DNA of 64,000 bases from a virus. The notes beneath the pieces were generated by a model. That model did not search any database. It was not told the DNA's origin and saw nothing but the letters and a program-made list of their open reading frames with translations. Positions 6,596 through 64,000 of the stretch are shown in pieces (the first letter of the stretch is position 1; the number at the start of each line of letters is the position of its first letter). The stretch lies in IMG/VR virus record IMGVR_UViG_3300028827_000100, positions 32,001 through 96,000 of that record; one strand, 5' to 3'. A program made the position numbers and the translations under genes.

Positions 6596-6605
6596 GGGGT
6601 TTGGT

Positions 6606-8933: not shown

Positions 8934-8948
8934 AGGGGGTGATGTTAG

Positions 8949-9347
8949 GTGGTGTTGTCAAAGTCTGAAATTATAGAGTTACTTGGTGGCAGGTACCTTT
9001 CGTTTATAGAGTGGCTGAACACGTCAACAGAGCCGGACGTTATTGCTGTCAGGGATTACTGGAATGCGAATGTAAGTTTTGACAGTGATAATCAAATAGT
9101 TTCTGAACTTGCGCAGGTAGTAAAGGATAAGTTTGGAGTTGATTTGTACGAAGAAGGAAAGTTGATATATGTGAAGAAAAACAAATACAGGGTGTCTGTA
9201 GGCAATGTTGAAAATATAACAGAGCTGATAAAGAAAGCGGCGATATATTCAACGGAGAGTGTTGGGTATGCAGGAAGGGATGATGAATATTATTACGTTG
9301 ATACGTATGGAGAGATAAACAGCAATTTGTTTGAACTTGTTGTTTAA
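8949..9347 (+). CDS. Hypothetical protein
   Basis: GTG start with GGGGGTG SD. Confidence 0.55.
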   Translation: MVLSKSEIIELLGGRYLSFIEWLNTSTEPDVIAVRDYWNANVSFDSDNQIVSELAQVVKDKFGVDLYEEGKLIYVKKNKYRVSVGNVENITELIKKAAIYSTESVGYAGRDDEYYYVDTYGEINSNLFELVV

Positions 9348-9371
9348 AAAAAGGAGTGGGAAAGGAGGCAG

Positions 9372-10196
9372 GTGATGGCAAAGGTTAGAAAAATTAAAAA
9401 GGTTTCGGGTCGGAAAAACAGGATTGGGAAAAAGGTTGACAGGAAGAAGGTCTACAGCCACAGAAACAGGGAGCAGAATCTTCCGGTTGTTTCGGATGTA
9501 TCAGAATTTTCCTTTCTTGATGACGGTCAGCACAGTTGTAGAATTTGCAGAACTCCAGCCGTGAGATTTTTCGTTGTTGAATGCATGGCAAGGGGTTTAT
9601 CTCTTTACAAAACGAGAGAACTTCTCAAAAAACATTTTAATTTTGGAATCACTCCAGCAACGATACGTGAGCATATTGAAAAGCATGATACACAGTACAC
9701 AAAGTGGTTCGGAATGGTTCAGTACAAATTTCCGACCGAAGAAGAAAGAAAGAGATACGAAGCGGCGTTTTTGAGTAGAGTGTCCATTGTAACAGAAATG
9801 TGGGACAAATACATGGTGATTTCAAAACTTTTTAGCATGGTGGTTGGTGATGCAAATAAGATAAATGAAAACGCCGTATTCAATGTTGATGATGTGGCAA
9901 AACTTTCCAACGTAATGAAGTCGTATCTGGAATCAATACTGAAACTCCAGAAGGAAAGGGATATATATGTAGAGGTTGCGAAGGTTGTGCTGTTTACAAT
10001 GGCTAACAACCTCGTTGACAGGTTGTCATCACTTGTAATGGATTTGCCGCAGGAAAGAAGGGATGCGATAGGCAAGGCAATTACGGAAGAGGTAAGGGCG
10101 GCGTTAGACCATGCAAAAAATCTTGGCAGGGAAAAAATAGAGAAGCTCATGGAGAAGGTGCAGGATGAATACAACAGGCTTGTCAAAAAGACATGA
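9372..10196 (+). CDS. terS: Probable terminase small subunit
   Basis: Directly upstream of TerL; basic N-terminus, CxxC...HxxxH flanking an HTH-like segment, helical C-terminus. Confidence 0.6.
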   Translation: MMAKVRKIKKVSGRKNRIGKKVDRKKVYSHRNREQNLPVVSDVSEFSFLDDGQHSCRICRTPAVRFFVVECMARGLSLYKTRELLKKHFNFGITPATIREHIEKHDTQYTKWFGMVQYKFPTEEERKRYEAAFLSRVSIVTEMWDKYMVISKLFSMVVGDANKINENAVFNVDDVAKLSNVMKSYLESILKLQKERDIYVEVAKVVLFTMANNLVDRLSSLVMDLPQERRDAIGKAITEEVRAALDHAKNLGREKIEKLMEKVQDEYNRLVKKT

Positions 10197-12087
10197 TAAT
10201 ATCCTGAAGATGAAACCTGTTGGCATTGACAGTTTTTGCCGTTCCATTTCACACAACAGTAAAATTGTTATTGAACTTCCGTCAGATACTCCGGTTGAAG
10301 CGGACGACGACCTGTTTCTGGAAGGGCTTGCTGTCAAGGTCGCCGGAGAAAAAGAAAAGAAAGTTGTAAGTGAAGAATATGGGAATATTATAGATTATGC
10401 GGTTAGAGCACTTGGTTTGAGAACGATATACAAGTATAAGCGGCAATATCAGGTGTTGAGAGACTTTTTCATGTTGCGATGTCCCGTCTGCAACGGAAAA
10501 GAAATGGATGTATGGAATATGACTGAAGAAGAAATTGAGAGAGAAGTGCTCATGCGACTTGACATGAAGTCTGAAAAACTTGTCTGTGACGGGTGCGGGC
10601 ACACCGTTGACAGGATGAAGTACAGAGACCTTGTTCTGTGTGTTGGCATGAGAAGCGGAAAAACTGTTACAGCGGCGATAATTGCCGCATATATATTTTA
10701 TCTGATTTTTGTTGTACCAAAACTTGACAGAAGGTTTCAGCTCATACCAGACCAGAGCTTGAGGGTGTCCATGGTAAGTACATCTTCGTCACAGACTGAA
10801 AAGACGGTTTGGTCTGCATTTACTTCATTGCTTGAGAACGCAATAGACGAAGATATAAAAAGAATTGTCAGGAACAATTCCAACTATGTTGAGATAGATA
10901 CGAATACAAAAGAGTGGAAAGTTGAAAACATAGAGTTTATGTCACTACACTCAAACTCCGGTTCACTTGCAGGTGGTACTGGCATACTTGCCGTGCTTGA
11001 GGAGTTTTCGAGATTTAACCTTGGCACTTCAAAGAGGAGTGCGGATGAAGTGAGAAACGTTTTGGACAGATCGCTTGCAACAACGAGGTCGGTTGCCAAA
11101 ACGTATCTCGAAGACCTCTTTACATTAATGGTAGTCATAAGTTCACCCTACTATGTTGTCGACGATCCTACAATGATGCTGTTTTATGATGTGGGCGAAT
11201 CGGGCGTTATCAATGTGAAATATGGCAGGCATATCAAAGGTGAACTGCTTGCATACCATTATCCAACTTGGGAATTTAATCCATTTATAGACAGAGGGGC
11301 ATCTTTCATAGAGAGGGCGTATTCTCTGGATGCGGCGGCGGCAGAAAGGGACTATGGGGCCAATCCTGTATCGTCGGCTGGTGGATTGTTTGAAAATGTT
11401 GAAAGCATTTACGAGAAAATTTTTCTGGATACAGACGACGGAATTATTTTTAATGTATATCCAAAACGAGAAGGAGACCTTGTAGCATTAACGGCTAAAG
11501 TTGAAAGCATAAAGAATTGTTTTGCCAAAGAGTATTATGTTCACATAGACCTTGGCTTGAATCACGACCTTCTGACTATGGTGTTTGCGAGGCCTGAAGA
11601 TGGGAATGTTTATGTTGACGGCATGCTTGTTATAAAGTCTGAACACAACATAGAGGCATACATTGATACACCGATTGAAATAATAGAAAGTATTAAAGAC
11701 AGGGTGAAAATAAATTATGTATCTTACGACAGATGGCAATCTGTTCCCGGCATACAGCGTTTGAAAAGGATGATGATTCCGGCTGGACTTTTCAGTGTCC
11801 GTGATGATGCGATAGTCACCTTGAAGTTTATGATGATGGCCGGAAAGGTTTACATACTTGACAACGACAAAAATGCAACGACAATTTTGAAACACGAAAT
11901 GAGAAGCGTGAGAAGGGTTAATGGAAAGTTAACTCATACAGATTTGCTTGTGTCTGTTTCCGGTGCTGTGAAGAACGCATTTACAGGTGTTACAAAGAAA
12001 ATGTATACCAAGGGCAGGAATGTCGTTTCCCATGTTACAGATTACAAAAACTTCATGCCGAGAACTGCAAAAATAGGCAGGCTTTAG
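10165..12087 (+). CDS. terL: Terminase large subunit
   Basis: Walker A GMRSGKT, Walker B AVLEEF, VVISSP motif, RuvC-like YVHIDLG and SYDRWQS; CPVC/CDGC insert. Confidence 0.9.
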   Translation: MNTTGLSKRHDNILKMKPVGIDSFCRSISHNSKIVIELPSDTPVEADDDLFLEGLAVKVAGEKEKKVVSEEYGNIIDYAVRALGLRTIYKYKRQYQVLRDFFMLRCPVCNGKEMDVWNMTEEEIEREVLMRLDMKSEKLVCDGCGHTVDRMKYRDLVLCVGMRSGKTVTAAIIAAYIFYLIFVVPKLDRRFQLIPDQSLRVSMVSTSSSQTEKTVWSAFTSLLENAIDEDIKRIVRNNSNYVEIDTNTKEWKVENIEFMSLHSNSGSLAGGTGILAVLEEFSRFNLGTSKRSADEVRNVLDRSLATTRSVAKTYLEDLFTLMVVISSPYYVVDDPTMMLFYDVGESGVINVKYGRHIKGELLAYHYPTWEFNPFIDRGASFIERAYSLDAAAAERDYGANPVSSAGGLFENVESIYEKIFLDTDDGIIFNVYPKREGDLVALTAKVESIKNCFAKEYYVHIDLGLNHDLLTMVFARPEDGNVYVDGMLVIKSEHNIEAYIDTPIEIIESIKDRVKINYVSYDRWQSVPGIQRLKRMMIPAGLFSVRDDAIVTLKFMMMAGKVYILDNDKNATTILKHEMRSVRRVNGKLTHTDLLVSVSGAVKNAFTGVTKKMYTKGRNVVSHVTDYKNFMPRTAKIGRL

Positions 12088-50387: not shown

Positions 50388-51218
50388 ATGAGATGTGATA
50401 TATTAGTTGTTGATGGTAATAACATAGCGTATAGAGAATATGCATCAAAGCCCCCGCTATCATACGGGGGCTTTCCTACGTCTGCTATATATGGATTTCT
50501 GCTCCAACTTGCAGGAGCAATCAAAACATGCCATCCAAAATATATAATAGTTGCATGGGATAGCAGGGAGAGCAAGCGGAAAGAGATATACCCTGCATAC
50601 AAGGCCAACAGGAAGAAAGACGATCCCAATATAAAAAACTACTATAAACAAGTTGAAGTCCTGCAAAAAGAAATCATGTCTGCCATAAGTGGTAGAACAA
50701 TACAGTCAATTTCATTTAATGGGTATGAGGCAGACGACATCATAGCGAGTGTGGTTGAGACTAATAATGAATCTGTAGTAATTCTTTCAAATGATTCTGA
50801 TTTGAGACAATTGCTTGCCTATCACAACGTGGCTATATACGATGGTAAGAAATTTCACACAAAGAAAACTTTTATTGACAAGTATGGATTTGAGCCGGAT
50901 ATGTATCCTGCATACAAGGCTATAGTCGGGGATAGTTCTGACAACATTAAAGGTGTTAAGGGGATGGGTAAAGTTGCCGCAAAAAAAATCATTAATGAGA
51001 GTGAATATTATGAGGATGTTAGAAAGCATATCGTATCTCTAAAAGGGGCTGAAGCCATTGATGCTTTTGACAAAGCAATGGAGTTGATATATCTCCCATT
51101 GCATGGTGAAATACTCGATGTTGAATTAATACCATACAGGATGAGTGTTGATGGGATTGTAGATGTATCTTACAGATATGGTCTTACCAAGATAACACCA
51201 AAGAAATTCAAAGTATAA
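50388..51218 (+). CDS. 5'-3' exonuclease / flap endonuclease (PolI N-terminal-like)
   Basis: VVDGNN..YR, AWD, YKANR, EADDIIA, SNDSDL.QL and GDSSDNIKGVKGMG motifs. Confidence 0.92.
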   Translation: MRCDILVVDGNNIAYREYASKPPLSYGGFPTSAIYGFLLQLAGAIKTCHPKYIIVAWDSRESKRKEIYPAYKANRKKDDPNIKNYYKQVEVLQKEIMSAISGRTIQSISFNGYEADDIIASVVETNNESVVILSNDSDLRQLLAYHNVAIYDGKKFHTKKTFIDKYGFEPDMYPAYKAIVGDSSDNIKGVKGMGKVAAKKIINESEYYEDVRKHIVSLKGAEAIDAFDKAMELIYLPLHGEILDVELIPYRMSVDGIVDVSYRYGLTKITPKKFKV

Positions 51219-51768: not shown

Positions 51769-53172
51769 ATGGCAAAAATAGACATTACACTTCAGGAAGT
51801 GGGCTTTTCTGCATATCTTCTCGACAGCATTATCTCTTTATTGATATGGGATACGGATTTTTTGAAGCGATGCAGGAACATAATACCGATAGAGATTTTT
51901 GAGGGTAGCAGGAAAGACATTGTCACCATATGTTACAACTATCTTGATGAGTATGGAGAGGCTCCAGAGAATTATATACTTGATGTAACAGAGGAGTACC
52001 TCGCAAAAAGAAAGAACAGAAGAAAAGTTGTATTGAAATATCTCAATAATGTAATGCAAGTTGAGCCTAAAAAAGAATATGTATTGAGTAAACTGGGTTC
52101 TTTTGTAAAGAAGGAAATCTGTAGCAGAGCAATAGAATCCGCAAAAGAGCTTGTTGATAAGGGGAAAGATACGGAGGCTCAAAAGTTAATTCTCTCGAAA
52201 TTCAGAGAGGCAAATCTCATTACCGCAGAAAATGTTGTTGACATTCTTGCGGAAGGTTTTACAATAAGCAGGTATAGTGATGATGAAATAAATTTTAAAA
52301 CTTTCATAGACCCATACGATTCCGAAGTTGGGGGGTTTTACAGGGGTGAGACAGTTCTTGTCTTTGGCGATTCTAATGTTGGAAAATCGTGGGCAATGGT
52401 TCACTTTGCTAAAGTTGCTTTGTTGCAGGGAAAGAAGGTTTTGTATTATACACTGGAAACTCCGGCAAGAGTAATTCAAAAAAGATTTGCTATGGCGATT
52501 ACCGGAACAAAAATATATATGAATCCTGAACAGGAAGAAAAAGAAATAATTGTAGGTGGTAAAAAGAAAAAGGCTGAAAGATTTTCGGAAGAAAAGTTTG
52601 TTTCTGTTTTGGATTTTTTGAGGGCACGACGTGGCAAGTTGTGGTTGATGAATCCGCATCACCTGAAATTTTCTGATATAGTTGCTCAAGTTGACAATCT
52701 TGAAGTTACATATAACACAATACCGGATGTTGTGATAATCGACAGTCCAGACCAAATGATGCACGAATCCAAATATAAAGAGTATCGACATAATGAACTG
52801 GAATTGTACAAGAGTTTGCTTGCTTTCAATCAGGAAAGAGATACAACTTTGATTATTACAACACAGGCTGGTAGACAGGCAGGGAAGAAACAGATAGTGA
52901 GGGGGCATGACATAGCAGAAGGTTATGGGAAATTCAGGGTGGTGGATACGGTTTTTACCCTCATGCAAACACCGGAAGAATATAAACGTGGTATAGTTAG
53001 GATGTTGCATGAAAAGAGCAGAGGGGAATCAAAGTATATGATGATGGAAATAACTCAGGCTCTTGATATTGGACAGTTTTGTTTGACTGCAAAAAGAATA
53101 AAAATGTCTGATATTGGTAAGGGTGAGGCTAAAAAGATATTGAAAAAGATTGCAAGGGGTAGTTCTAAATGA
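51769..53172 (+). CDS. DnaB-like replicative helicase
   Basis: Walker A GDSNVGKS, YYTLE, VIID, TTQ..R and KSR motifs. Confidence 0.85.
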   Translation: MAKIDITLQEVGFSAYLLDSIISLLIWDTDFLKRCRNIIPIEIFEGSRKDIVTICYNYLDEYGEAPENYILDVTEEYLAKRKNRRKVVLKYLNNVMQVEPKKEYVLSKLGSFVKKEICSRAIESAKELVDKGKDTEAQKLILSKFREANLITAENVVDILAEGFTISRYSDDEINFKTFIDPYDSEVGGFYRGETVLVFGDSNVGKSWAMVHFAKVALLQGKKVLYYTLETPARVIQKRFAMAITGTKIYMNPEQEEKEIIVGGKKKKAERFSEEKFVSVLDFLRARRGKLWLMNPHHLKFSDIVAQVDNLEVTYNTIPDVVIIDSPDQMMHESKYKEYRHNELELYKSLLAFNQERDTTLIITTQAGRQAGKKQIVRGHDIAEGYGKFRVVDTVFTLMQTPEEYKRGIVRMLHEKSRGESKYMMMEITQALDIGQFCLTAKRIKMSDIGKGEAKKILKKIARGSSK

Positions 53173-54674
53173 GAGATGACAAACCTATTTATGGGTATGA
53201 AATAAAGAAATATAGGAATGAGCTTACAGAAGATGTATTGCATAAAATCATAATGAGTGTTGCGCCAGAAGGATTCAAGTTTTATGTCAAACCGTTTTAC
53301 CATCAATATCTGTCGATAGCCTTTTGTCTTCAATTTGACAGTGCCGGGCTTTACCTTGGCATGGGTACTGGTAAGACAAAGACGGTTATAGAGTTGTTAA
53401 GGATTATGGGAATACGCAACAGAATATTGTTTATTACTGTTTCAAGTGCTGTGTATCAGATTGAGGATCAGTTCAAACAACATGCCGGCAACGAATATAA
53501 TACAATTGTGATAGACAGCAGTATAAAGGATAATGAGTGTGAAGAAATTATTGAGTGTAATGACTATGATGTATTCATAACTTATTATGAAAGAATTGTC
53601 CCGTATGGTGGAAATAGCGATAACGATTATATCAATCCAATTTTCGACAGAGATTGGAACGCTCTTATTATAGATGAAAGCAGAAAAATAATGAATCCTA
53701 AAAGCAAGAAAACTAAAGCTGTATTAAATCTTTCATTGCGCTCAAAACACAGGTTTGCTCTTGCAGGTATGCCGGTGGCAAAAAATCTGTATGAGATATT
53801 TACACAGCAATTTGCAATTGACCATGGATTGATGTTTGGGGATTCATATAACAATTTTATGAATACTTACTTTGTAAAGCACAAAACGTGGGGCGGATAT
53901 AACATATTTCTACCGAGGGCTGGTTCGGAAGAAAAGATACATAAAAAAATGTATACTATGGCGGTAAGGTTCAGGCAGGAAGAGATAGAGGATATGCCGG
54001 AAAAAATGTATCAAACAAGGTATATAACTCTTGACGGAGACCAGAAGAGGCATTATGAAGATTTAAGAGTTAATGCACAGGGAATAATTGTGGAGAGTAA
54101 GAACAAATATTTTGTTGTTAAGTCAATACTAACAAAGTTTCATCAAATATGCGGAGGGTATTTAAAACATGACGGTGGCATAAAAGAATTTAAAACAAAT
54201 GTAAAGTTGCAAGCCCTTCTCGACATTCTTGACGAAGCACCTGATGAGAAGTTTCTTGTTTTTTGCTCTTATCAGGCAGAGCAAAAAGGTATCGTGAAAT
54301 TCTTGAAGAAGAACAAAATTAAAGTAGGGTGTATAATACACGATACAGACAAGAAGGAAATATTCAATATACAAAAGGAATTTAACGAGGGTGACAAAAT
54401 AAGAGTTCTTGTTTGCAGTTACTATATTGCTGGCAGGGCTCTTGATCTTTATGGTGCATCTAACGTTGTAATGTATTCAATGAATTTCGACTATGAAATA
54501 ATGATGCAGGCCGAAGACAGAGTTAGAAGGCCGCAACAAAAAAAGAAAGTCGTGAAGTATATAAGACTTGTTTGTAGAAACACGGTTGATGAGAAATTAC
54601 TTGAAAGTGCTGAAGCTGACAAGAACTTTGTGGATAGGGTGGTAGAGGGCAAGAACATACTTGACTATATATAG
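53169..54674 (+). CDS. SNF2-like superfamily 2 helicase
   Basis: GMGTGKT, IIDES, LAGMP, K...L..IL, QAEDRVRRPQQ, TVDE. Confidence 0.85.
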   Translation: MRDDKPIYGYEIKKYRNELTEDVLHKIIMSVAPEGFKFYVKPFYHQYLSIAFCLQFDSAGLYLGMGTGKTKTVIELLRIMGIRNRILFITVSSAVYQIEDQFKQHAGNEYNTIVIDSSIKDNECEEIIECNDYDVFITYYERIVPYGGNSDNDYINPIFDRDWNALIIDESRKIMNPKSKKTKAVLNLSLRSKHRFALAGMPVAKNLYEIFTQQFAIDHGLMFGDSYNNFMNTYFVKHKTWGGYNIFLPRAGSEEKIHKKMYTMAVRFRQEEIEDMPEKMYQTRYITLDGDQKRHYEDLRVNAQGIIVESKNKYFVVKSILTKFHQICGGYLKHDGGIKEFKTNVKLQALLDILDEAPDEKFLVFCSYQAEQKGIVKFLKKNKIKVGCIIHDTDKKEIFNIQKEFNEGDKIRVLVCSYYIAGRALDLYGASNVVMYSMNFDYEIMMQAEDRVRRPQQKKKVVKYIRLVCRNTVDEKLLESAEADKNFVDRVVEGKNILDYI

Positions 54675-54682
54675 GGGGAGGT

Positions 54683-55483
54683 ATGGAGCTGAATAAAAAA
54701 TTAAGGAGTAAAATAGAGAAATATATTTATTATGAGGATGAAAATGTTTTATTGTTGCACGGGAACTCATTTGAGATATTACCCATGTTTGATAATATTG
54801 TTTTTGAACTTGTGTTGACGGATCCACCTTATGATTTTGGGAATAGAATTTTGGGTGGTGGCTTCTATAAGTCCGGTGTGAAAGGTGGCAGAAAATATTT
54901 AAAGAAGCTAAAAAAATTGAATAGTGTCAAATTTAATCCAAAATTATTTCTGGATATGTTCAAGTATAGGCAAGGCGTCTTTTTCTGCAATAAAAAACTG
55001 TTACCAGAATATATTAAACATGTCTTGAAAAGAAAGATGTCGTATGATATACATTTTATGTGGAAGGAAAATCCAATACCAGCAAAGAGCAATCATTTTA
55101 TGAGTGATGTTGAATATATCGTTTTTATAAAATTTAAAAAGGCGTATTTCAATCAACATAATAGTATTGAGGATTATAAGAAGGTATTTAGAACTGTTAG
55201 TAAGGCAAACAATCTTCATCCGGCGGAAAAGCCAGTGGCCGTAATGGAGAAATATGTTAGAGTGTTATGTCCAGAGGGTGAAATTGTATTCGACCCATTT
55301 ATTGGTTCTGGCGCTACTGCAATTGCGTCTGTATGCAATGGAAGGAAGTGTATAGGAATAGAGAAAGATAAGAAATATCTCGATATAACAATACAAAGAC
55401 TTCAAACAGTCACAAACAGTTTTCTGTCTATTGGGAAAAGTAAAAAAGGGTGGAGGCCAACCAAAAGCATGTTTGGAGCATAA
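54683..55483 (+). CDS. Orphan N6-adenine/N4-cytosine DNA methyltransferase (beta class)
   Basis: TDPPY (motif IV) precedes HPAEKP and FDPFIGSG (motif I). Confidence 0.9.
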   Translation: MELNKKLRSKIEKYIYYEDENVLLLHGNSFEILPMFDNIVFELVLTDPPYDFGNRILGGGFYKSGVKGGRKYLKKLKKLNSVKFNPKLFLDMFKYRQGVFFCNKKLLPEYIKHVLKRKMSYDIHFMWKENPIPAKSNHFMSDVEYIVFIKFKKAYFNQHNSIEDYKKVFRTVSKANNLHPAEKPVAVMEKYVRVLCPEGEIVFDPFIGSGATAIASVCNGRKCIGIEKDKKYLDITIQRLQTVTNSFLSIGKSKKGWRPTKSMFGA

Positions 55484-55484
55484 A

Positions 55485-56453
55485 ATGTTTGACCTTGTTT
55501 CTTATATAGAGTCAATAGGTGTGGATTACAAGCCAAGCGGTACTAATATTATGAAAAATCACATTGGTATCAATTGCATGTTTTGTGGTGACGATCCTAC
55601 CTATCATTTGAATGTAAAAGTGGATGGGACTCATGCCCTGTGTTTTAGGTGTGGTAAGAGGCTATTTGGGCCGTATGCAATACTTAAAATATTTGAGGGG
55701 GATATAACAAGATACAGGTATGCGGAAATAATACAGGAATATCCGTTTGACGGGGAAGTGGATGAACGTAACTATGATGATTCTGACGGTGAAATAATAA
55801 CACGCCGCAGGATATTTAGGACTGTATGGAATGATTTTAAATCCTTCACTTTCAATAGTAAGAAGGAAAGAAAGTTTTTGAAATATTTGAAGGGGAGGCA
55901 TATAAGGAAAGACACAATCAAGAGTCTCGATATTAGATGGGCTGATAATGGAATATATAAGAACAGGGTCATTATACCCATAAGGCATCATGATGATGGA
56001 GAGGTTGTCAATTTTGTTGCAAGGTCTATATTCAAACAGGTTGAGCCAAAGTATAGGAATTGTCCTAATGATATTTGTGTATATACGGCTGGGAAGGTTT
56101 TGTTCGGGCTGTATGAATCAGGAGACTTAATAAAAAATAAGAATATGCTCGTAGTATGCGAGGGCGTGTTTGATTCTATCAGATTAATTCAGGAAGGTGT
56201 GCCGTCTGTGGCTATTCTGAAAAAAGTAATAGCTGACGGTCAAATGGAAATTCTTTCTGGATTGGACAGGGGGATAAAAGTCATTCTCATGCTCGACAGT
56301 GAAGTTGATGAAACCGACAGGGATAAGATAGCAATATCATTATCAGAACTTTTTCATACGGTGATAAATGCAAAGTTGTCCGAGGGCGATCCGGCTGAAA
56401 TGAGTGTTGATGATATTAAAGCATTGTTGTTGAAGCTAAAAAAATGGAGGTGA
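55485..56453 (+). CDS. DNA primase (Zn finger plus TOPRIM)
   Basis: CMFC...H...CFRCG, RVIIP, PKY.N, VCEGVFD, LMLDSE, GDP; start moved to ATG 55485. Confidence 0.85.
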   Translation: MFDLVSYIESIGVDYKPSGTNIMKNHIGINCMFCGDDPTYHLNVKVDGTHALCFRCGKRLFGPYAILKIFEGDITRYRYAEIIQEYPFDGEVDERNYDDSDGEIITRRRIFRTVWNDFKSFTFNSKKERKFLKYLKGRHIRKDTIKSLDIRWADNGIYKNRVIIPIRHHDDGEVVNFVARSIFKQVEPKYRNCPNDICVYTAGKVLFGLYESGDLIKNKNMLVVCEGVFDSIRLIQEGVPSVAILKKVIADGQMEILSGLDRGIKVILMLDSEVDETDRDKIAISLSELFHTVINAKLSEGDPAEMSVDDIKALLLKLKKWR

Positions 56454-57486: not shown

Positions 57487-58584
57487 ATGAAATGTGGAGA
57501 ACTGCAAAAAATTCTTAAAAAGGTTAAAGTTGTGATGTCAGAGCAATCTTTGTCAAAACCTCGCATATCTTTCGATGGAAAGAGGTTGATAGCGTGTAAT
57601 GGAACTGTATATATTTCGTTACCTTTTGAGGGTGATATATCATCTTGTATTGTAGATTATAAAACTATATCGTCTATAATTAATGGCATATCACAGGTAA
57701 AGAAAATCAAGATGTACACCAAATCTGAAATGCTGATTATAAAAGCCGGTATGTCAACTTTCAAAATACCACTTGTTACTGGCGAAGAAATTGCTACTTT
57801 CAATGCTATGGTTGACAGTATCAAGAAAAAGAAAACAGAGAAGACAATTATGATGACAGGCAGTGCATGGTCTTTACTTGATAAAATGCTCCCATATTCA
57901 GTTCCGAAATTTGGGACAATGTATCCGTCTGGCGTTTATGTTTACAAAGGAAATTTCATTACACACAATGGTGTAGTTGGAATGATTGCAGGAGCGGATG
58001 TATCAAAATCTGAAAGATTTTTTATACCGCATATTTTTTGCAAAGCAGTAATGGGCGCGTATGAAGATGAGGGTGTGCCAAGTGCAAAAATTGGCATAGG
58101 TGATGATGTGATGAGTTTTAAAAAATCGGATATAGTTATTTTGAGCACTCTTGTGAAAGATTTGAACATAAGCACGTTTGAATTGATAGGCGATATTGTA
58201 AAACATGCAAAGAAAATTTCAAAGAATGGAAAGAATGCCATACAGATAAATGATAAATTTAAAAGGGAAGTGGGCTATATGGATTTGGTTCTTGCGCAGG
58301 AAAGTTCGGAATATGACCGGGTTGGCACAGTTAGTATCGAAAATGGGAAAGCTGTTTTTACTGTTGATAGTGCTCAATGCAACTATCATGGCGTGTTGAA
58401 AGTCGAAAACAAATCAGCAAAGTGGGATGCTAAATTTCATGTATCTTTGGCATTGCCACTCATAAATGATTGCAACAGGGTTACGCTCGTTAAATATGAA
58501 AAGATAAATGTTTTATATTTAAACAATGAATCTTTTGATATTGTGGTTGCGACTATCAAAGACAGGGAAGGTGAAAAAGAATGA
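57487..58584 (+). CDS. Beta sliding clamp-like protein (divergent DnaN)
   Basis: 365 aa, close to bacterial DnaN length; DnaN-like alpha/beta pattern (LIACNG, LIIKAG.STF.I); directly upstream of dnaE. Confidence 0.65.
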   Translation: MKCGELQKILKKVKVVMSEQSLSKPRISFDGKRLIACNGTVYISLPFEGDISSCIVDYKTISSIINGISQVKKIKMYTKSEMLIIKAGMSTFKIPLVTGEEIATFNAMVDSIKKKKTEKTIMMTGSAWSLLDKMLPYSVPKFGTMYPSGVYVYKGNFITHNGVVGMIAGADVSKSERFFIPHIFCKAVMGAYEDEGVPSAKIGIGDDVMSFKKSDIVILSTLVKDLNISTFELIGDIVKHAKKISKNGKNAIQINDKFKREVGYMDLVLAQESSEYDRVGTVSIENGKAVFTVDSAQCNYHGVLKVENKSAKWDAKFHVSLALPLINDCNRVTLVKYEKINVLYLNNESFDIVVATIKDREGEKE

Positions 58585-61500
58585 TACACCTCCATGTACA
58601 TTCAGATTACAGTCTGCTTGATGGGTTGTGTAAAATAGACTCTCTTTTCGAGAAAGCAAAAGAGGCTGAACACGAGGCGATTGCAATAACAGACCACGGC
58701 AATCTTGATTGCTATGTTAAAGCCTTGAAAGCATCTCAAAAATACGGGGTTAAATATATACCTGCTGTTGAGATGTATCTTGCAAACAACGTTCATAAAG
58801 TTGAGCCGAAAGAAAAATACAGGCATTTATGCCTGTACGCCCTTAACATGGATGGGTTGTCAGAGCTGTTCAGAATACTTGGGTATGCAAATCAGAAGTT
58901 TGTAAGAAAGCCTATTGTGGATATTGATACTTTAACAAAAGATTTTGACCTTACAAACATTGCCGTGAGCACGGCGTGTTTGTATGGTATATTGTCGTAT
59001 AACAACTGTGAAGAACAGATAGAAAAACTCATTGATGCCACAGACAATCTGTTTATTGAAATAATGCCGCACAACATTGATGAACAGGTACAAATGAACG
59101 AAAGGGCTGTTTTTGTAGCGGAAGACTACAACCTTCCGCTAATAGCAACTAATGATGTTCATTATATAGAAGCAGAGCACGTGAACAGTCACGATGTTTT
59201 GCTTGCAATAAACACAAACAGAAAAGTAAATGACAAGGACAGGTTCAGGTTCAAGATACGTTCATTATATTACTGTACTGAAGATGAGATGCTGAAGATG
59301 TTTAGAAAACAAAAATCAGTCAGGATTGCAACTGCTGTTAAAGCCATTGATAATACCAATCGCCTGTGTGAACTTGTTGATTTTAAATCTTTTGGTGGAT
59401 ATGGTGTAGAGTTAAATGTTTCAGGGTATAAGAGAAAGAATTTTATGCGTCTGATAGAGATGAGATTCAGAAACATTCTCAAGAAAATTCCTGCGCACAA
59501 AAAAGAGATTTACAGGGAAAGACTAAAAAAGGAGCTTGATTTGATTGTAAGAAAAAAATTTGATACGTATTTTTACGTTGTTTATGACATTATAAAATAT
59601 GCAAGAAACAATGGAATTTATGTGGGATGCGGTCGTGGAAGCGTTGGCGGGTCACTACTTGCATATGTACTTGGAATAACAACGGTTGACCCTATTAAAT
59701 TTGGCCTGTCCTTTGAAAGGTTTATTGCAGAAGACAGAATAGATTTGCCGGATATAGATATGGATTTTGAAGATAGAAAGAGAGATATTGTTATACAGTA
59801 TATATCTGAAAAATATGGAAGGGATGGGACGTGTAACATTTCAACATTCGGTCAGTTGAAACCGAAAGGTGTTATAAGGGATGTGGCAAGAATACATGAC
59901 GTTTCACGCAAAGACATAGACATGGTTTCAAAAAATCTTATCAAGGTTTCAGATGACGACAACGTTGAAAAACTTGCAGAGGAGAATGAAGTTGTTGCAG
60001 ATTTTTTCATGAAATACCCGGAGCTACTTGAACATTCAAAGAATCTCGAAAACGTCATTCGCAATTCCGGTGTTCATGCCGCTGGGATAGTTGTGTGCGA
60101 ACAGGACATAAATGAAACGGGGAGGGGGTATCTTGTAAAGAGAAACAATAAGTATGTGTTAAACTGGGATAAAGATGATGCAGAGTATATGGGCTTTATC
60201 AAATATGATATTCTTGGCCTTAATACTTTAACGGTTATTTCTGAATGTATAAGGCTTATAGAGGAGAGGCATGGTGAATTTGTAGACGTATACAGTTTGC
60301 CCCTGAATGACAGGAAAACTCTCTCTCTTTTTGAGAAGGGTGATACTACTGGAGTATTCCAGTTTTCATCGGGTGGAATGAAACAGCTTTTAAAGAATTT
60401 TGGCATAGATAAGTTTCACGACCTATGCGTTATCAATGCGTTATACAGGCCCGGTACTCTTGGCGGGGGTATTCACGAAAAATATATTTCAGTAAAACGT
60501 GGTGAGGATGAACCTAATTTTTATGGCTCTGAAGCATACAGAAGGGTAACAAAGAATACTTATGGATTCATTATTTATCAGGAACAGTTACTAAAAGTTT
60601 TTACCGAATTTGGATTTACATATTCGGAAGCAGATAAGATAAGAAAGATATGCTCTAAAAAGAAGGGTAAAAGTGAAATAGTTAAATACAAGAAAAGGTT
60701 TGTAGAGTATGCAGTAAAAAATGCTGGTATGAAAAAGAGTGATGCATCGGACTTATTTGATACTCTCGAAAATTTTGCCGAATATGCGTTTAACCTTGCC
60801 CATGCAACGGAATATGCAATGATAGGATACTGGACTGCATATTTAAAATGTCATTATTACGATGAGTATATGCAGTCTCTTTTGACATATGGCAGTGAAC
60901 ACAACAGGCAGGAATATATAGATGAATTAATGAGCAGGGGATACAAATTTAGAAATGTGAATATAAACAGGTCAAGTGCTATAGATTGGGTTGTTTTGGA
61001 TGGAGAAGTTTATCTTCCCTTTATTTCAATCCTTGGAATAGGGGAAAAGGCCGCCCGTGTTCTTGAGCAAGCGAGAAATCTGCATGGAGAAATCAGTACG
61101 CCGGAACAACTCTTTCAGGTTGTCCCGGACAGAAAAGCGGTAAATAAAAGGATTGTGAATTTGCTTATTGATGCAGGTGCTTTTGATGACAATTCTAAAA
61201 TAAAAAAGGAAATGCTCAAAGTAAAAATAACATTTGCAGAAGAAGTGCTTGATTTATACAGGAGATGGTTGTCTTCGAACAATGCGGGTCTTGTTAAGGT
61301 GCAAAAGAAACTCAAAGATGGGAAGAAAGTGATAGTTAATTTTGTAGAGGACGATTTGAATGAGAATGTTTTTGTGAATGTCAAACACGATACTTATGCC
61401 TCTATTGCAGAAGGTGATTTGTATTATGCCGGTTTTTCTGGTAAAAACATGCTTGGCATTGCTACAACAGAACAAATGCGCAAGCTCGAACTTGATTCTA

Positions 61501-62102
61501 CCGGAGCGAATATACAGGTTATATCAGGAATTGAAGATGCAAGTGTGGTCAGAAGAAAGATTAAGAAATGTTCAAGGTGTCAATTGAGAAGTGAGTGTAG
61601 AGAGCCTGTGGCAGGTGAATACAACAGTAATATTCTGCTTGTGGGGGAGGCTCCGGGGAGAGATGAGGACAGGTATGGAAAGCCGTTTGTCGGGAAAGCC
61701 GGACAATTGCTGTTTAAAGTTCTTGGGAAATATGGTGTAGAAAGGTCAGATGTGAGCATAATAAATACGGTTAAGTGTTGGCCGTCAAAAACAAAAACGC
61801 CAGACAGTGAACACGTGAAAGCATGTAAAAGCCACTTTGTAAGGGAAATAAAACATATAGAGCCGGTTATAATTTTATCTCTTGGCTCTATCGCATCAAA
61901 AGTTTTAAGTGACAACGATTCATTCAAGATAACTGAAAACGCTGGCACTTGTGAATATAATGACAAGATAGGGGCATGGGTTATGTATTGTCTTCACCCT
62001 TCCCATGTATTGAGGGGATATGAAAAGGACAGGGTAAAGTTGTTTACAGAGACTATAAGGTCTTTTGTTGAGAAAATAATATTTTTAAATGGAGGCGAAT
62101 AA
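58581..62102 (+). CDS. dnaE: DNA polymerase III alpha subunit fused to a C-terminal family-4 uracil-DNA glycosylase
   Basis: PHP HLHVHSDYSLLDG, TDHG, TNDVHY; GRGS, PDIDMDF, HAAG, KYDILG, FNLAHA. From ~61545: CSRC, GEAPG, PFVG, NTVKC...C, LHPS. Confidence 0.92.
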   Translation: MIHLHVHSDYSLLDGLCKIDSLFEKAKEAEHEAIAITDHGNLDCYVKALKASQKYGVKYIPAVEMYLANNVHKVEPKEKYRHLCLYALNMDGLSELFRILGYANQKFVRKPIVDIDTLTKDFDLTNIAVSTACLYGILSYNNCEEQIEKLIDATDNLFIEIMPHNIDEQVQMNERAVFVAEDYNLPLIATNDVHYIEAEHVNSHDVLLAINTNRKVNDKDRFRFKIRSLYYCTEDEMLKMFRKQKSVRIATAVKAIDNTNRLCELVDFKSFGGYGVELNVSGYKRKNFMRLIEMRFRNILKKIPAHKKEIYRERLKKELDLIVRKKFDTYFYVVYDIIKYARNNGIYVGCGRGSVGGSLLAYVLGITTVDPIKFGLSFERFIAEDRIDLPDIDMDFEDRKRDIVIQYISEKYGRDGTCNISTFGQLKPKGVIRDVARIHDVSRKDIDMVSKNLIKVSDDDNVEKLAEENEVVADFFMKYPELLEHSKNLENVIRNSGVHAAGIVVCEQDINETGRGYLVKRNNKYVLNWDKDDAEYMGFIKYDILGLNTLTVISECIRLIEERHGEFVDVYSLPLNDRKTLSLFEKGDTTGVFQFSSGGMKQLLKNFGIDKFHDLCVINALYRPGTLGGGIHEKYISVKRGEDEPNFYGSEAYRRVTKNTYGFIIYQEQLLKVFTEFGFTYSEADKIRKICSKKKGKSEIVKYKKRFVEYAVKNAGMKKSDASDLFDTLENFAEYAFNLAHATEYAMIGYWTAYLKCHYYDEYMQSLLTYGSEHNRQEYIDELMSRGYKFRNVNINRSSAIDWVVLDGEVYLPFISILGIGEKAARVLEQARNLHGEISTPEQLFQVVPDRKAVNKRIVNLLIDAGAFDDNSKIKKEMLKVKITFAEEVLDLYRRWLSSNNAGLVKVQKKLKDGKKVIVNFVEDDLNENVFVNVKHDTYASIAEGDLYYAGFSGKNMLGIATTEQMRKLELDSTGANIQVISGIEDASVVRRKIKKCSRCQLRSECREPVAGEYNSNILLVGEAPGRDEDRYGKPFVGKAGQLLFKVLGKYGVERSDVSIINTVKCWPSKTKTPDSEHVKACKSHFVREIKHIEPVIILSLGSIASKVLSDNDSFKITENAGTCEYNDKIGAWVMYCLHPSHVLRGYEKDRVKLFTETIRSFVEKIIFLNGGE

Positions 62103-63049
62103 TGTTTCATACTAAATACAGACCAAAAAATCTCCTTCAGTTTTATGGTAATGAAGAAGTTGTATCGGCAATAAAATTGATGCTGAAAGACGAAATCAAG
62201 CCGTATGCTTTTCTTATCACGGGTGAAAAGGGGACTGGGAAAACAACACTTGCAAGAATAATAGCAAAGAAACTTGGTGCAAGTGATTTAAGTTTGACGG
62301 AATTAAACTCTGCCGATATGAGAGGTATAGATACTTCAAGAGAAATAATAAATACATCTGCATATTCAACTTTTTTCGGCGATGTCAGGGTATATATATT
62401 TGACGAAGCTCATTCACAAACAAGGGAGGCGCAGGAAGCATTATTGAAATTACTTGAGTCGCCACCACGGAGAACACACTACATTTTTTGCACAACAAAT
62501 CCAGAAAAAATGCTTGATACTCTCAAGAGGAGATGCGTTCATTATCATTTAAAACCTCTCTCTTTCGATGAAAGAAAAAGGTTGTTTGATACTGTTGCTA
62601 AAAAGGAAAAGATAGAATATGACGATGATGTAAGAGAGCTTATTGTGGAAGAATCTCTTGGCAATCCTTCAATGTTGTTGTTGTATATGTATGAGTGTAG
62701 GGGATTAACGTATGAACAGGCCAGAAGTGTTATCAGGAGTCACGTGGACGATACAGACGAAGACATTATAGAACTTTGCAGAATGTTTCTGAAACCTCAA
62801 AGGATGAAGTGGAGTAAAATCATATCTGCTATTGACGCTATTCTTGAGAGGGTTTCGGCTGAAACGTTAAGGTTGACTATGTATAGCTATTACACTACCA
62901 TGTTAAAAAAAGCGAAAACTGACGAAGACATTTTATTTTCAATAGCCATACTTGAAGAAATTGACAGCCCGGTTTACGACAATGCTAATGGGAATAGAAG
63001 GATTATATATATGCTTGCCCGTGTTTATGCCACATTGAAAGGTCTATAA
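62102..63049 (+). CDS. Clamp loader AAA+ ATPase (DnaX gamma/tau-like)
   Basis: KYRP, GEKGTGKTT, DEAH, ALLK.LE.PP, TTNPEK, RRC. Confidence 0.88.
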   Translation: MFHTKYRPKNLLQFYGNEEVVSAIKLMLKDEIKPYAFLITGEKGTGKTTLARIIAKKLGASDLSLTELNSADMRGIDTSREIINTSAYSTFFGDVRVYIFDEAHSQTREAQEALLKLLESPPRRTHYIFCTTNPEKMLDTLKRRCVHYHLKPLSFDERKRLFDTVAKKEKIEYDDDVRELIVEESLGNPSMLLLYMYECRGLTYEQARSVIRSHVDDTDEDIIELCRMFLKPQRMKWSKIISAIDAILERVSAETLRLTMYSYYTTMLKKAKTDEDILFSIAILEEIDSPVYDNANGNRRIIYMLARVYATLKGL

Positions 63050-63722: not shown

Positions 63723-64000
63723 GTGAAAAAGTTAAAGAAGTTCAAAAAGCCAAGCGGGAAGAAGAAATCCCTGAAGGCAGGCAGGAAATTCAAGTTTGCC
63801 ACTGCCGATGCTATTAAGAAAAGAATAGAGAATATCGGCAAGGGGCGGTGGGCAACGTATCTGTCGGATACATATGACAGGTACAAAATCAAACAGGGAG
63901 ACAATTTCATTAGATTGCTCCCTTTGATTTTGCCTGAAGATGTCGAAGGCGATTTTGCCTATGACATTTATGTCCACAGCCGTCTCGGTGCAAACAGCGA
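63723..64000 (+). CDS. gp32-like single-stranded DNA-binding protein (5' part, truncated by the window end)
   Basis: GTG start after GGGGGTG; hand translation ...KIKQGDNFIRLLP...FAYDIYVHSRLG, matching the GxNxIRxLP...VH pattern of phage SSBs. Confidence 0.65.
   Translation, partial: MKKLKKFKKPSGKKKSLKAGRKFKFATADAIKKRIENIGKGRWATYLSDTYDRYKIKQGDNFIRLLPLILPEDVEGDFAYDIYVHSRLGANS

What the first reader, a model, noticed from the sequence alone, without database searches (positions are those of the whole stretch)
58581..62102. Replicative Pol III alpha with a built-in family-4 [4Fe-4S] uracil-DNA glycosylase
Seen: one uninterrupted 1173-aa ORF. The DnaE core is followed, after a shortened region where the OB-fold and tau-binding domains normally sit, by ~185 aa with family-4 UDG motifs: CSRC plus two downstream Cys (Fe-S ligands), GEAPG (61644-61658), PFVG, the uracil-binding Asn and HPS (61995). 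Known: cellular DnaE lacks this domain; UDG is linked to replication in poxvirus (D4 processivity subunit), and UDG-like domains occur on SPO1-type family-A polymerases. Inference: a family-C replicase that removes or senses uracil at the fork, or uses UDG for processivity. Family-4 UDGs are common in thermophiles, where cytosine deamination is fast. I cannot confirm that this fusion is undescribed.
Basis: partly seen in the sequence, partly recalled or inferred. Interest (0 to 1): 0.85.

Follow-up and report, generated by a model that had tools for sequence, protein, structure and literature searches.

The report
Phage DnaE polymerase with intact UDG tail
An uncultured 106-kb phage's main DNA-copying enzyme (a bacterial-type DnaE) really does end in a complete-looking iron-sulfur uracil-removing domain, but this polymerase-glycosylase fusion was noted in print in 2014 and is common in phages and phage-plasmids, so this is a well-preserved new member of a known kind whose function is still untested.

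Summary
[quoted passage not shown] The four Fe-S cysteines, GEAPG, PFVG, the Asn and HPS are all present.

The gene is translationally coupled to a beta-clamp gene upstream and a clamp-loader gene downstream, inside a phage Pol III-type replisome module.

The fusion is not new. Timinskas et al. 2014 (PMC3919608) described a DnaE with OB and C-terminal domains replaced by a PF03167 UDG domain. About 980 plasmid records carry such a tail under 'dnaE' (Klebsiella, Escherichia, Acinetobacter, Yersinia, Salmonella). 44 of the best 80 IMG/VR UDG4 loci have it, and so do about 70 metagenomic clusters. This scan has reported it before on at least 10 other genomes.

What sets this copy apart is that its UDG is intact. 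The two phage-plasmid tails I examined (A. baumannii, Y. pestis) are catalytically degenerate.

Most likely it is an active, polymerase-tethered glycosylase that excises uracil during replication. Which strand it works on is unknown. The idea that the UDG supplies processivity is unnecessary here, because the phage has its own clamp and loader.

Class: new member of a known kind; moderate-to-low interest.

The parts
58581..62102 (+). DnaE-UDG gene, 1173 aa (P0001)
   Evidence: Open frame; five Pfam domains; AF2 model mean pLDDT 86.9
58587..59060 (+). PHP domain (res 3-160). All nine metal ligands are present: H5 H7 D14 H39 E64 H82 C133 D192 H194. Candidate intrinsic 3'-5' proofreader.
   Evidence: Pfam 9e-27. 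The ligands are invariant or at least 90% conserved in 32 fusions. No DnaQ-type exonuclease in the genome.
59466..60722 (+). Pol III alpha palm/thumb and fingers (res 296-714), with catalytic Asp D391, D393, D543
   Evidence: Pfam 9.4e-76 and 2.2e-42; the Asp residues are invariant; Z 45-46 to 4iqj and 2hnh
60942..61199 (+). (HhH)2 / beta-binding-region domain (res 788-873)
   Evidence: Pfam HHH_6 1e-10
61200..61535 (+). Linker (res 874-985). Low-confidence small barrel with strand-strand-strand-helix-strand-strand order, OB-like.
   Evidence: pLDDT about 50-65; strands at 905-962. The linker-only model has pLDDT 50, and its structural neighbours are mostly OB folds at Z 5-8. No sequence-level support.
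61536..62099 (+). Family-4 UDG domain (res 986-1173): C997, C1000, C1066, C1082; GEAPG 1022-1026; PFVG 1035-1038; N1062; HPS 1139-1141
57487..58584 (+). Beta sliding clamp homologue (365 aa); its stop overlaps the DnaE start (ATGA)
   Evidence: phrog_947 processivity factor 6.6e-8; Atlas structural match TM 0.80 to a bacterial beta-clamp cluster; sequence
62102..63049 (+). Clamp-loader AAA+ subunit (315 aa); its start overlaps the DnaE stop (TAATG)
   Evidence: Pfam DNA_pol3_delta2 4.5e-20; phrog_5846 1.1e-59; sequence
51769..53172 (+). DnaB-like replicative helicase
   Evidence: phrog_19 1.1e-41; Pfam
55431..56453 (+). DnaG-type primase
   Evidence: phrog_47 8.6e-37; Pfam DNAG_N
50388..51218 (+). 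FEN-type 5'-3' exonuclease. Removes primers; a possible flap nuclease after uracil excision.
   Evidence: Pfam 5_3_exonuc_N 3e-34; phrog_107

Best explanation
This is the replicative polymerase of an uncultured 106-kb tailed phage. It combines a DnaE-type Pol III alpha core, a PHP domain that probably proofreads, an (HhH)2 domain, a reduced OB-like linker, and a catalytically competent family-4 [4Fe-4S] uracil-DNA glycosylase. The UDG sits where cellular DnaE1 has its tau-binding C-terminal domain. The enzyme is held on DNA by the phage's own beta clamp, which a minimal clamp loader puts on. Because the UDG is covalently tethered, uracil excision happens at the fork, either on the single-stranded template ahead of the active site (deaminated C) or on freshly made duplex (misincorporated dUMP). 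The resulting abasic sites would be handled by host AP endonucleases together with the phage FEN and recombination proteins. Shown: the architecture, the intact motifs, the fold, the operon context and the recurrence. Inferred: glycosylase activity, Fe-S loading, which strand is scanned, and what happens downstream.
For: The domain architecture and UDG4 identity are established. All Fe-S and catalytic positions are present. In 70 DnaE-UDG cluster representatives only 31-46% identical overall, they are kept: C997 68/70, C1000 69, C1066 69, C1082 70, E1023 68, N1062 68, H1139 69, P1140 70. All 70 fused UDGs fall on one side of a branch (SH-aLRT 92), away from stand-alone and PolA-type UDGs, which points to an old, maintained fusion. 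This is the only UDG in the genome. The genome has no dUTPase, ThyA, ThyX or dCMP deaminase, so the phage copies DNA from the host dNTP pool with no dUTP control of its own. dUTPase is also absent from 19 of 20 related DnaE-UDG viral records. The clamp and loader genes are translationally coupled to the polymerase. FEN, SSB-like, UvsX-like and SbcCD genes lie nearby. The PHP metal ligands are all conserved and the genome has no DnaQ.
Against: There is no biochemical evidence for any DnaE-UDG. The conservation count is biased, because the 70 relatives were picked as best matches to an intact query. Degenerate tails exist in other lineages: A. baumannii has TDCPN and SPA, and Y. pestis has LDNAN and NPN with the Cys lost. 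The fold is therefore retained even without chemistry, so it must have some non-catalytic value. The genome has no AP endonuclease of the ExoIII or EndoIV type and no ATP-dependent ligase, so the repair steps after excision depend on the host. Excising U from a single-stranded template would create a blocking, breakable abasic site. The dUTPase contrast (1/20 against 5/20) is not significant. The NCBIfam UDG4 scores are below the curated whole-protein cut-offs.
Confidence: 0.65

Rival explanations
1. The UDG fold serves mainly as a non-catalytic module: a DNA-binding or partner-binding replacement for the OB and tau-binding domains. Its intact motifs would then be a retained ancestral state rather than the selected function.
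For: The phage-plasmid DnaE tails of A. baumannii and Y. pestis keep the fold but have lost motif A, the Asn, the His and some or all of the Cys, and about 980 plasmid records keep such tails. UDG-PolA of N4-like phages is likewise inactive (PMC10201439). A processivity role for polymerase-fused UDG domains has been proposed (PMC3201878).
Against: In this lineage every catalytic and Fe-S residue is held at 93-100% across relatives that are only about a third identical overall. The phage has its own clamp and loader, coupled to the polymerase gene, so no extra processivity factor is needed.
Confidence: 0.2
2. The UDG domain polices base composition or counters a host defence. For example, it might reject dU in a genome with modified thymidine, as proposed for SPO1-type UDG-PolA, or cope with dUTP flooding caused by host dCTP-deaminase defence.
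For: UDG-PolA occurs in phages with 5hmU or dU DNA, and a 'second editing mode' has been proposed for it (PMC10201439). This phage carries other counter-defence genes according to earlier notes on the same genome.
Against: The 106-kb genome has no thymidylate-synthase-like hydroxymethylase, dUTPase or dCMP deaminase. No modification genes were seen in the replication module.
Confidence: 0.08
3. The fusion is an assembly or gene-calling artefact that joins a DnaE gene to a separate UDG gene.
For: Some viral loci do have a separate small UDG ORF downstream of a DnaE fragment (3 of 80). Read support here is thin and may come from the source sample.
Against: The frame is uninterrupted. The same one-ORF architecture appears in 44 IMG/VR loci, 70 metagenomic clusters and finished plasmids. 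Contigs spanning 61255-61670 show no indel.
Confidence: 0.02

Closest known systems
'DnaEX' variant of Pol III alpha with OB and CTD replaced by a PF03167 UDG domain (Timinskas et al. 2014, NAR 42:1393, PMC3919608). Examples: Y. pestis pMT1-type WP_002221186.1 and A. baumannii phage-plasmid WP_001024529.1.
   Same: The domain order is the same: PHP, Pol3, fingers, (HhH)2, C-terminal UDG fold. The replicon size is similar, about 100-113 kb. FEN and recombinase genes lie nearby.
   Different: In the two plasmid tails I examined, motif A, the Asn, the His and the Cys ligands are replaced. Here all are intact. This phage also encodes its own clamp, loader, DnaB and DnaG.
DnaE-UDG of uncultured phages
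   Same: Same architecture with an intact UDG4. They are 31-46% identical to this protein, and many have clamp-loader or FEN genes nearby.
   Different: Linker length ranges from 13 to 222 aa. Long-linker forms keep a recognisable OB-like block, and many carry inteins. This copy has a 118-aa linker by the estimate (core end about residue 868 to UDG start at 986) and no intein.
UDG-PolA fusions (SPO1, SP-15, N4-like, PaBG/'Lupandier' phages)
   Same: A family-4 UDG domain is fused to the phage replicative polymerase, with both active-looking and dead versions (PMC10201439; PMC7412058).
   Different: The polymerase is family A rather than family C, the UDG is N-terminal rather than C-terminal, and these UDGs fall on a separate branch of the UDG tree.
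Methanobacterium virus PhiF1 ORF58/ORF57 (MK994522)
   Same: A viral DnaE carries a UDG-superfamily domain with HPS and the Cys ligands.
   Different: The UDG is at the N-terminus, before PHP, which is an independent arrangement. Motif A reads GLNPG, with no Glu, as in family 5. The gene is annotated as two overlapping ORFs.
Stand-alone family-4 UDGs (T. thermophilus 1ui0, T. maritima TM0511 1l9g/1vk2, S. tokodaii 4zbx)
   Same: Same fold (Z 26-28, rmsd 1.4-2.0 A), same motifs and same Cys spacing; 31-35% identity.
   Different: Those are free 190-205-aa repair enzymes. Here the domain is the C-terminal part of a replicase.
Functional analogies only: the archaeal family-B polymerase uracil read-ahead pocket; UNG2 or family-4 UDG bound to PCNA; poxvirus D4-A20 (from my own knowledge, except D4, which PMC3201878 mentions)
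   Same: Uracil recognition is physically coupled to the replisome.
   Different: There is no homology of architecture. Those couplings are either non-covalent or use a binding pocket without a glycosylase.

Membership tests
Family-C DNA polymerase, DnaE type (Pol III alpha) | PHP-Pol3-fingers-(HhH)2 core with the Pol III alpha fold | tested here: met
   Pfam; TIGR00594 715 bits, above the 434 cut-off; Z 46.5 to 4iqj and 45.2 to 2hnh over about 850 aa
Family-C DNA polymerase, DnaE type (Pol III alpha) | Catalytic acidic triad in the palm | tested here: met
   D391, D393 and D543 are invariant in 32 fusions. Their equivalence to E. coli D401/D403/D555 rests on motif context and my own knowledge.
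DnaE1 (cellular replicative subgroup) | C-terminal OB fold followed by the tau-binding CTD | tested here: not met
   No CTD is present: the UDG follows the linker directly. The OB is at best a reduced, low-confidence barrel. The equivalog models score below their cut-offs (NF004226 732 against 1002).
PHP-proofreading DnaE (as in M. tuberculosis DnaE1) | All nine PHP metal ligands present | tested here: met
   H5 H7 D14 H39 E64 H82 C133 D192 H194 are conserved. Exonuclease activity is not testable here.
UDG family 4 (UdgA) | Motif A GE(A/G)PG containing the Glu | tested here: met
   GEAPG at 1022-1026 aligns to GEGPG of 1ui0 and TM0511
UDG family 4 (UdgA) | Motif B HP(S/A), and the Asn of the N-x-x-K-C segment | tested here: met
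   H1139-P-S and N1062 are aligned and conserved 69/70 and 68/70
UDG family 4 (UdgA) | Four Cys ligands of the [4Fe-4S] cluster (C-x2-C ... C ... C) | tested here: met
   C997, C1000, C1066 and C1082 align with the Cys of 1ui0 and TM0511. Cluster loading itself is not testable.
UDG family 4 (UdgA) | Alpha/beta UDG fold | tested here: met
   Z 27.8, rmsd 1.6 A, 183 of 192 residues of 1ui0
UDG family 4 (UdgA) | Score above the curated NCBIfam cut-off | tested here: not met
   TIGR00758 scores 113.3 against 125.3, and NF040953 129.9 against 250. These cut-offs were set for stand-alone enzymes. Pfam UDG scores 95.2 against 24.3, which is met.
UDG family 4 (UdgA) | Uracil excision activity | not testable with these tools
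   Needs biochemistry
UdgX (covalent uracil-DNA binder) | Family model cut-off, and the extra loop carrying the cross-linking His | tested here: not met
   TIGR03914 scores 108.4 against 189.95. The N1062-to-C1082 segment aligns without a gap to classical family-4 enzymes. That UdgX has an insertion at this point is from my own knowledge.
UDG family 5 (UdgB) | Motif A without the polar or acidic residue (GLAPG type) | tested here: not met
   This protein has GEAPG. PhiF1 has GLNPG.
UDG-tailed DnaE ('DnaEX' of Timinskas 2014) | PF03167 domain after (HhH)2, in place of the CTD | tested here: met

The most novel reading that the evidence does not exclude
The intact UDG takes the place next to the reduced OB-like element where cellular DnaE handles the single-stranded template. 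There it would act as a read-ahead uracil checkpoint for a family-C replicase. It would bind or excise deaminated cytosine in the template before the active site reaches it and stall synthesis, so that the phage's UvsX, SbcCD and SNF2 recombination machinery restarts from the undamaged sister. This would be a bacterial-type, enzyme-based counterpart of the archaeal PolB uracil pocket.
Probability: 0.2. Interest if true: 0.65.

Novelty: new member of a known kind. Interest (0 to 1): 0.3.

Why it matters
Coupling of uracil recognition to replication is known for archaeal PolB, PCNA-bound UDGs and poxvirus D4, but nobody has tested what a glycosylase built into a Pol III-type replicase does. The phage-plasmid copies that are easiest to obtain (pMT1, pHCM2, SSU5-type, A. 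baumannii) have dead tails. Intact copies like this one, with a complete self-encoded clamp, loader and polymerase set and no inteins, are the natural material for asking whether a family-C replicase can excise or sense uracil while it synthesises. Comparing them with the dead tails would also show why the fold is kept after the chemistry is lost. As a genomic observation it adds little: the architecture is published, widespread, and has been reported repeatedly in this scan.

Tried and rejected
1. Complex prediction of the polymerase core (271-880) against the UDG domain (985-1173) gave 'no answer' (score 0.00). It says nothing either way about docking.

I used IMG/VR loci instead.

3. The search for related loci with the whole protein in genome contigs returned only cellular DnaE cores (residues 2-870, 31-35% identity; Armatimonadota, Chloroflexota, Patescibacteria). 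It gave no host clue and no fusions.

4. I first read the conserved Y-F-D/S-F-S-L motif after GAFD as a clamp-binding motif. hhalign instead aligns it colinearly with the E-L-L-G-x-Y-L-S-x-H-P-L segment that precedes the OB fold in cellular DnaE (E 0.0031, 120 columns, probability only 10%). I dropped the clamp-motif idea and name no clamp-binding peptide.

5. Sequence-level homology of this protein's own linker to OB domains was not detectable. The structural hint rests on a pLDDT-50 model with Z 5-8 matches, which is within background.

6. Sequencing runs: only four small runs of one coded sample hold the stretch, as short contigs covering part of it. There is no habitat information and no independent confirmation.

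7. The clamp candidate has no PDB sequence match at E<=1. Its assignment rests on PHROG and the Atlas structural neighbours.

8. The dUTPase contrast between DnaE-UDG viral records (1/20) and other UDG4-carrying viral records (5/20) is too small to count.

9. Literature searches for a functional study of DnaE-UDG found none. The library misses most subscription journals.

10. The UDG tree is a quick IQ-TREE search, because the careful search did not finish in time.

Full report
**Observation.** Window 58581-62102 (+) is a single open frame of 1173 aa.

- Pfam places PHP at 3-160, the Pol III alpha catalytic region at 296-546, fingers at 549-714, HHH_6 at 788-873 and a UDG-superfamily domain at 1012-1160 (E 4.7e-27).
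- NCBIfam's type-4 UDG models hit 990-1149 at 7.4e-38 and 9.4e-33. Both are below their curated whole-protein cut-offs, which were set for free-standing enzymes.
- Against PDB sequences, the last 203 residues match T. maritima TM0511 (3e-30), T. thermophilus UDG 1ui0 (1e-24) and S. tokodaii UDG (1e-22). The alignments put C997/C1000, GEAPG 1022-1026, PFVGKAG, N1062-x-x-K-C1066, C1082 and H1139-P-S on the equivalent residues without gaps in the core.

**Structure prediction.** A full-length AlphaFold2 model built on 32 relatives has mean pLDDT 86.9 and pTM 0.71.

- Residues 1-883 superpose on Taq Pol III alpha 4iqj (Z 46.5) and E. coli 2hnh (Z 45.2).
- Residues 986-1171 superpose on 1ui0 (Z 27.8, rmsd 1.6 A over 183 residues).

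**Is the fusion real?** The frame has no stop.

- Short contigs from four runs of one sample, possibly the source sample, cover 61255-61670 and 61726-61989 at 99% identity or more with no indel.
- The architecture also recurs independently. In an exhaustive profile-free search with residues 881-1173, 70 of the clusters among the best 150 contain both a DnaE core and a C-terminal UDG, 44 of them with a full-length core.
- Among the best 80 UDG4 loci in IMG/VR, 44 have DnaE and UDG in one ORF, 3 have a DnaE fragment upstream in another ORF, and 13 are UDG-PolA.

**Context.** The window is bases 32001-96000 of a 105,878-bp IMG/VR virus record rated complete. Nearly all genes are on the + strand, with positive GC skew throughout. 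The polymerase sits in a bacterial-type replisome module:

- FEN-type 5'-3' exonuclease (50388-51218)
- DnaB-like helicase (51769-53172)
- SNF2 helicase
- N6/N4 DNA methyltransferase
- DnaG primase (55431-56453)
- two small ORFs
- a 365-aa beta-clamp homologue (57487-58584)
- DnaE-UDG
- a 315-aa clamp-loader subunit (62102-63049)
- then SSB-like, UvsX-like, SbcD and SbcC genes

The clamp stop overlaps the polymerase start (ATGA), and the polymerase stop overlaps the loader start (TAATG). Each junction has a Shine-Dalgarno-like purine run just upstream.

Family searches of the whole genome find no second UDG. They also find no dUTPase (PF00692), ThyA, ThyX, dCMP deaminase, DnaQ-type exonuclease, ExoIII- or EndoIV-type AP endonuclease, or ATP-dependent ligase.

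**Anatomy of the protein.**

- All nine PHP metal ligands (H5, H7, D14, H39, E64, H82, C133, D192, H194) and the palm aspartates (D391, D393, D543) are invariant or nearly so in 32 aligned fusions. With no DnaQ in the genome, the PHP domain is the likely proofreader, as in M. tuberculosis DnaE1 (my own knowledge; the 5lew and 7pu7 structures are among the matches).
- The region between (HhH)2 and the UDG is variable in the family, from 13 to 222 aa. Long-linker relatives share a K-F-G-Y-R ... G-D-L-G-G-V-Y-G block. hhalign lines this block up colinearly with the OB region of cellular DnaE (E 0.0031, 120 columns, probability 10%), so an OB remnant is plausible there.
- This protein's linker gives no sequence signal. 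It is nonetheless predicted twice with the order strand-strand-strand-helix-strand-strand. The low-confidence linker model finds mainly OB folds (PriB, SSB, RPA, MCM N-domains, LEF-3) at Z 5-8, which is background strength. I therefore call it 'OB-like, tentative'.
- The tau-binding C-terminal domain is absent. That fits a 315-aa loader, which is too short to carry tau's polymerase-binding extension (inference).

**Is the UDG likely active?**

- Every residue that defines family 4 is present: the Glu-containing motif A, the Phe and Gly of PFVG, the Asn, motif B His-Pro, and the four cluster cysteines.
- The domain is not UdgX. The UdgX model scores below its cut-off, and the Asn-to-Cys segment aligns without a gap to classical family-4 enzymes.
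- It is not family 5 either, because motif A has the Glu.
- Across 70 fused relatives these positions are kept in 63-70 of 70: C997 68, C1000 69, C1066 69, C1082 70, E1023 68, F1036 63, N1062 68, H1139 69, P1140 70. Whole-protein identity among the same relatives is only 31-46%.
- This sample is biased towards intact tails, because it was drawn by similarity to an intact query.
- In a quick maximum-likelihood tree, all 70 fused UDGs fall on one side of a branch (SH-aLRT 92), together with 35 short proteins that mostly look like gene fragments. 46 stand-alone UDGs and the 8 other long proteins, seven of them UDG-PolA fusions and one with no polymerase domain detected, fall on the other side.

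**What is already known.**

- Timinskas et al. [quoted passage not shown]
- I confirmed the architecture by Pfam in an A. baumannii 105-kb phage-plasmid and located the UDG-like tail under the annotated dnaE of a Y. pestis IncFIB 101-kb plasmid.
- A tblastn with the A. baumannii tail finds 978 plasmid records, nearly all 100-120 kb and non-mobilizable, with the match under 'dnaE': Klebsiella 336, Escherichia 215, Acinetobacter 154, Enterobacter 91, Yersinia 63, Salmonella 49.
- In the two tails I aligned, the chemistry is gone. GEAPG becomes TDCPN or LDNAN, the Asn becomes T or G, HPS becomes SPA or NPN, and cluster cysteines are lost.
- Methanobacterium virus PhiF1 carries a UDG at the N-terminus of its DnaE, with GLNPG in motif A. 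GenBank annotates this.
- UDG-PolA fusions of SPO1, N4-like and PaBG-like phages are well described, with both active-looking and dead forms. Processivity and 'second editing mode' hypotheses have been proposed for them (PMC10201439, PMC7412058, PMC3201878).
- This scan has already reported DnaE-UDG on at least ten other genomes, both dead and intact forms, citing the same 2014 paper. My checks agree with those notes.
- I found no functional study of any DnaE-UDG in the held library.

**How it most likely works.** The polymerase, clamp and loader form a self-sufficient Pol III-type replicase, so the UDG is not needed as a processivity factor. The preserved chemistry argues for a working glycosylase that travels with the fork.

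Two sub-modes cannot be separated with the tools I had:

- It could scan the single-stranded template near the OB-like element for deaminated cytosine.
- It could remove dUMP that the polymerase has just incorporated from an uncontrolled dUTP pool.

The phage and 19 of 20 related viral records lack a trimeric dUTPase, against 15 of 20 comparators, which is not significant. After excision the phage offers only FEN and recombination functions, so AP-site incision and ligation would be the host's job.

The dead tails in phage-plasmids show that the fold also has a value independent of catalysis. This keeps a structural or DNA-binding role alive as a rival or an additional function.

A weak compositional hint (IVYWREL 0.42, roughly 58 C by the Zeldovich relation; CvP 7.8) is compatible with a moderately thermophilic host, where cytosine deamination would matter more. 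The host is unidentified.

**Verdict.** This is a new, well-preserved member of a known and widespread polymerase-glycosylase fusion, not a new kind of system. Its value is as good material for the first biochemical test of what a UDG does on a family-C replicase.

Noticed in passing
window 63723-64000, continuing to G000 95723-97203 (L004:1724-2536 and L004:2445-3203): Two overlapping + strand ORFs in different frames hit successive parts of the same family (phrog_34306, positions 12-227 and 278-367 of 388; the first also hits an SSB phrog). This looks like one SSB-like gene split by a frameshift, either real or a sequencing error.
   Followed up: no
whole genome G000 (105,878 bp): There is no dUTPase, ThyA, ThyX, dCMP deaminase, DnaQ-type exonuclease, ExoIII/EndoIV AP endonuclease or ATP-dependent ligase, despite a nearly complete self-encoded replisome.
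   Followed up: partly
whole genome G000: Predicted proteome composition (IVYWREL 0.42, CvP 7.8, median pI 5.3, 35% of ORFs with pI below 5) hints at a moderately thermophilic and/or acid-shifted proteome. The host is unknown.
   Followed up: no
G000 ends (bases 1-22 and the reverse complement of the other end): IMG/VR classes the record as having inverted terminal repeats. The perfect inverted match at the two ends is only 22 nt, and it starts with a self-complementary CCCCAGATTAATCTGGGG.
   Followed up: no
relatives P0002, P0015, P0020, P0021, P0038, P0039, P0056, P0089, P0090, P0125: Many DnaE-UDG relatives are 1400-1900 aa because of insertions in the polymerase core at several different sites. 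In P0002 and P0015 these insertions were confirmed as inteins by Pfam, and P0002's has an HNH. This copy has none.
   Followed up: partly
L001 (Methanobacterium virus PhiF1, MK994522) 6037-10831: The PhiF1 DnaE is annotated as two ORFs overlapping by 80 nt (UDG+PHP, then the rest). Its N-terminal UDG has GLNPG in place of GEAPG. This could be a frameshift, a programmed shift or a split gene.
   Followed up: no
window 53169-55483: An SNF2-family helicase and an N6/N4 DNA methyltransferase are inserted between the DnaB and DnaG genes of the replisome module.
   Followed up: no
G000 7533-7616 (L005): A single tRNA-Leu(CAA) is the only tRNA found in the phage genome.
   Followed up: no
plasmid records such as NZ_CP018257.1 (A. 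baumannii, 111 kb): In some A. baumannii phage-plasmids the UDG-like tail (52.6% identical to the WP_001024529.1 tail) is annotated as a separate 'uracil-DNA glycosylase family protein' rather than as part of dnaE. This could be a split gene or an annotation difference.
   Followed up: no
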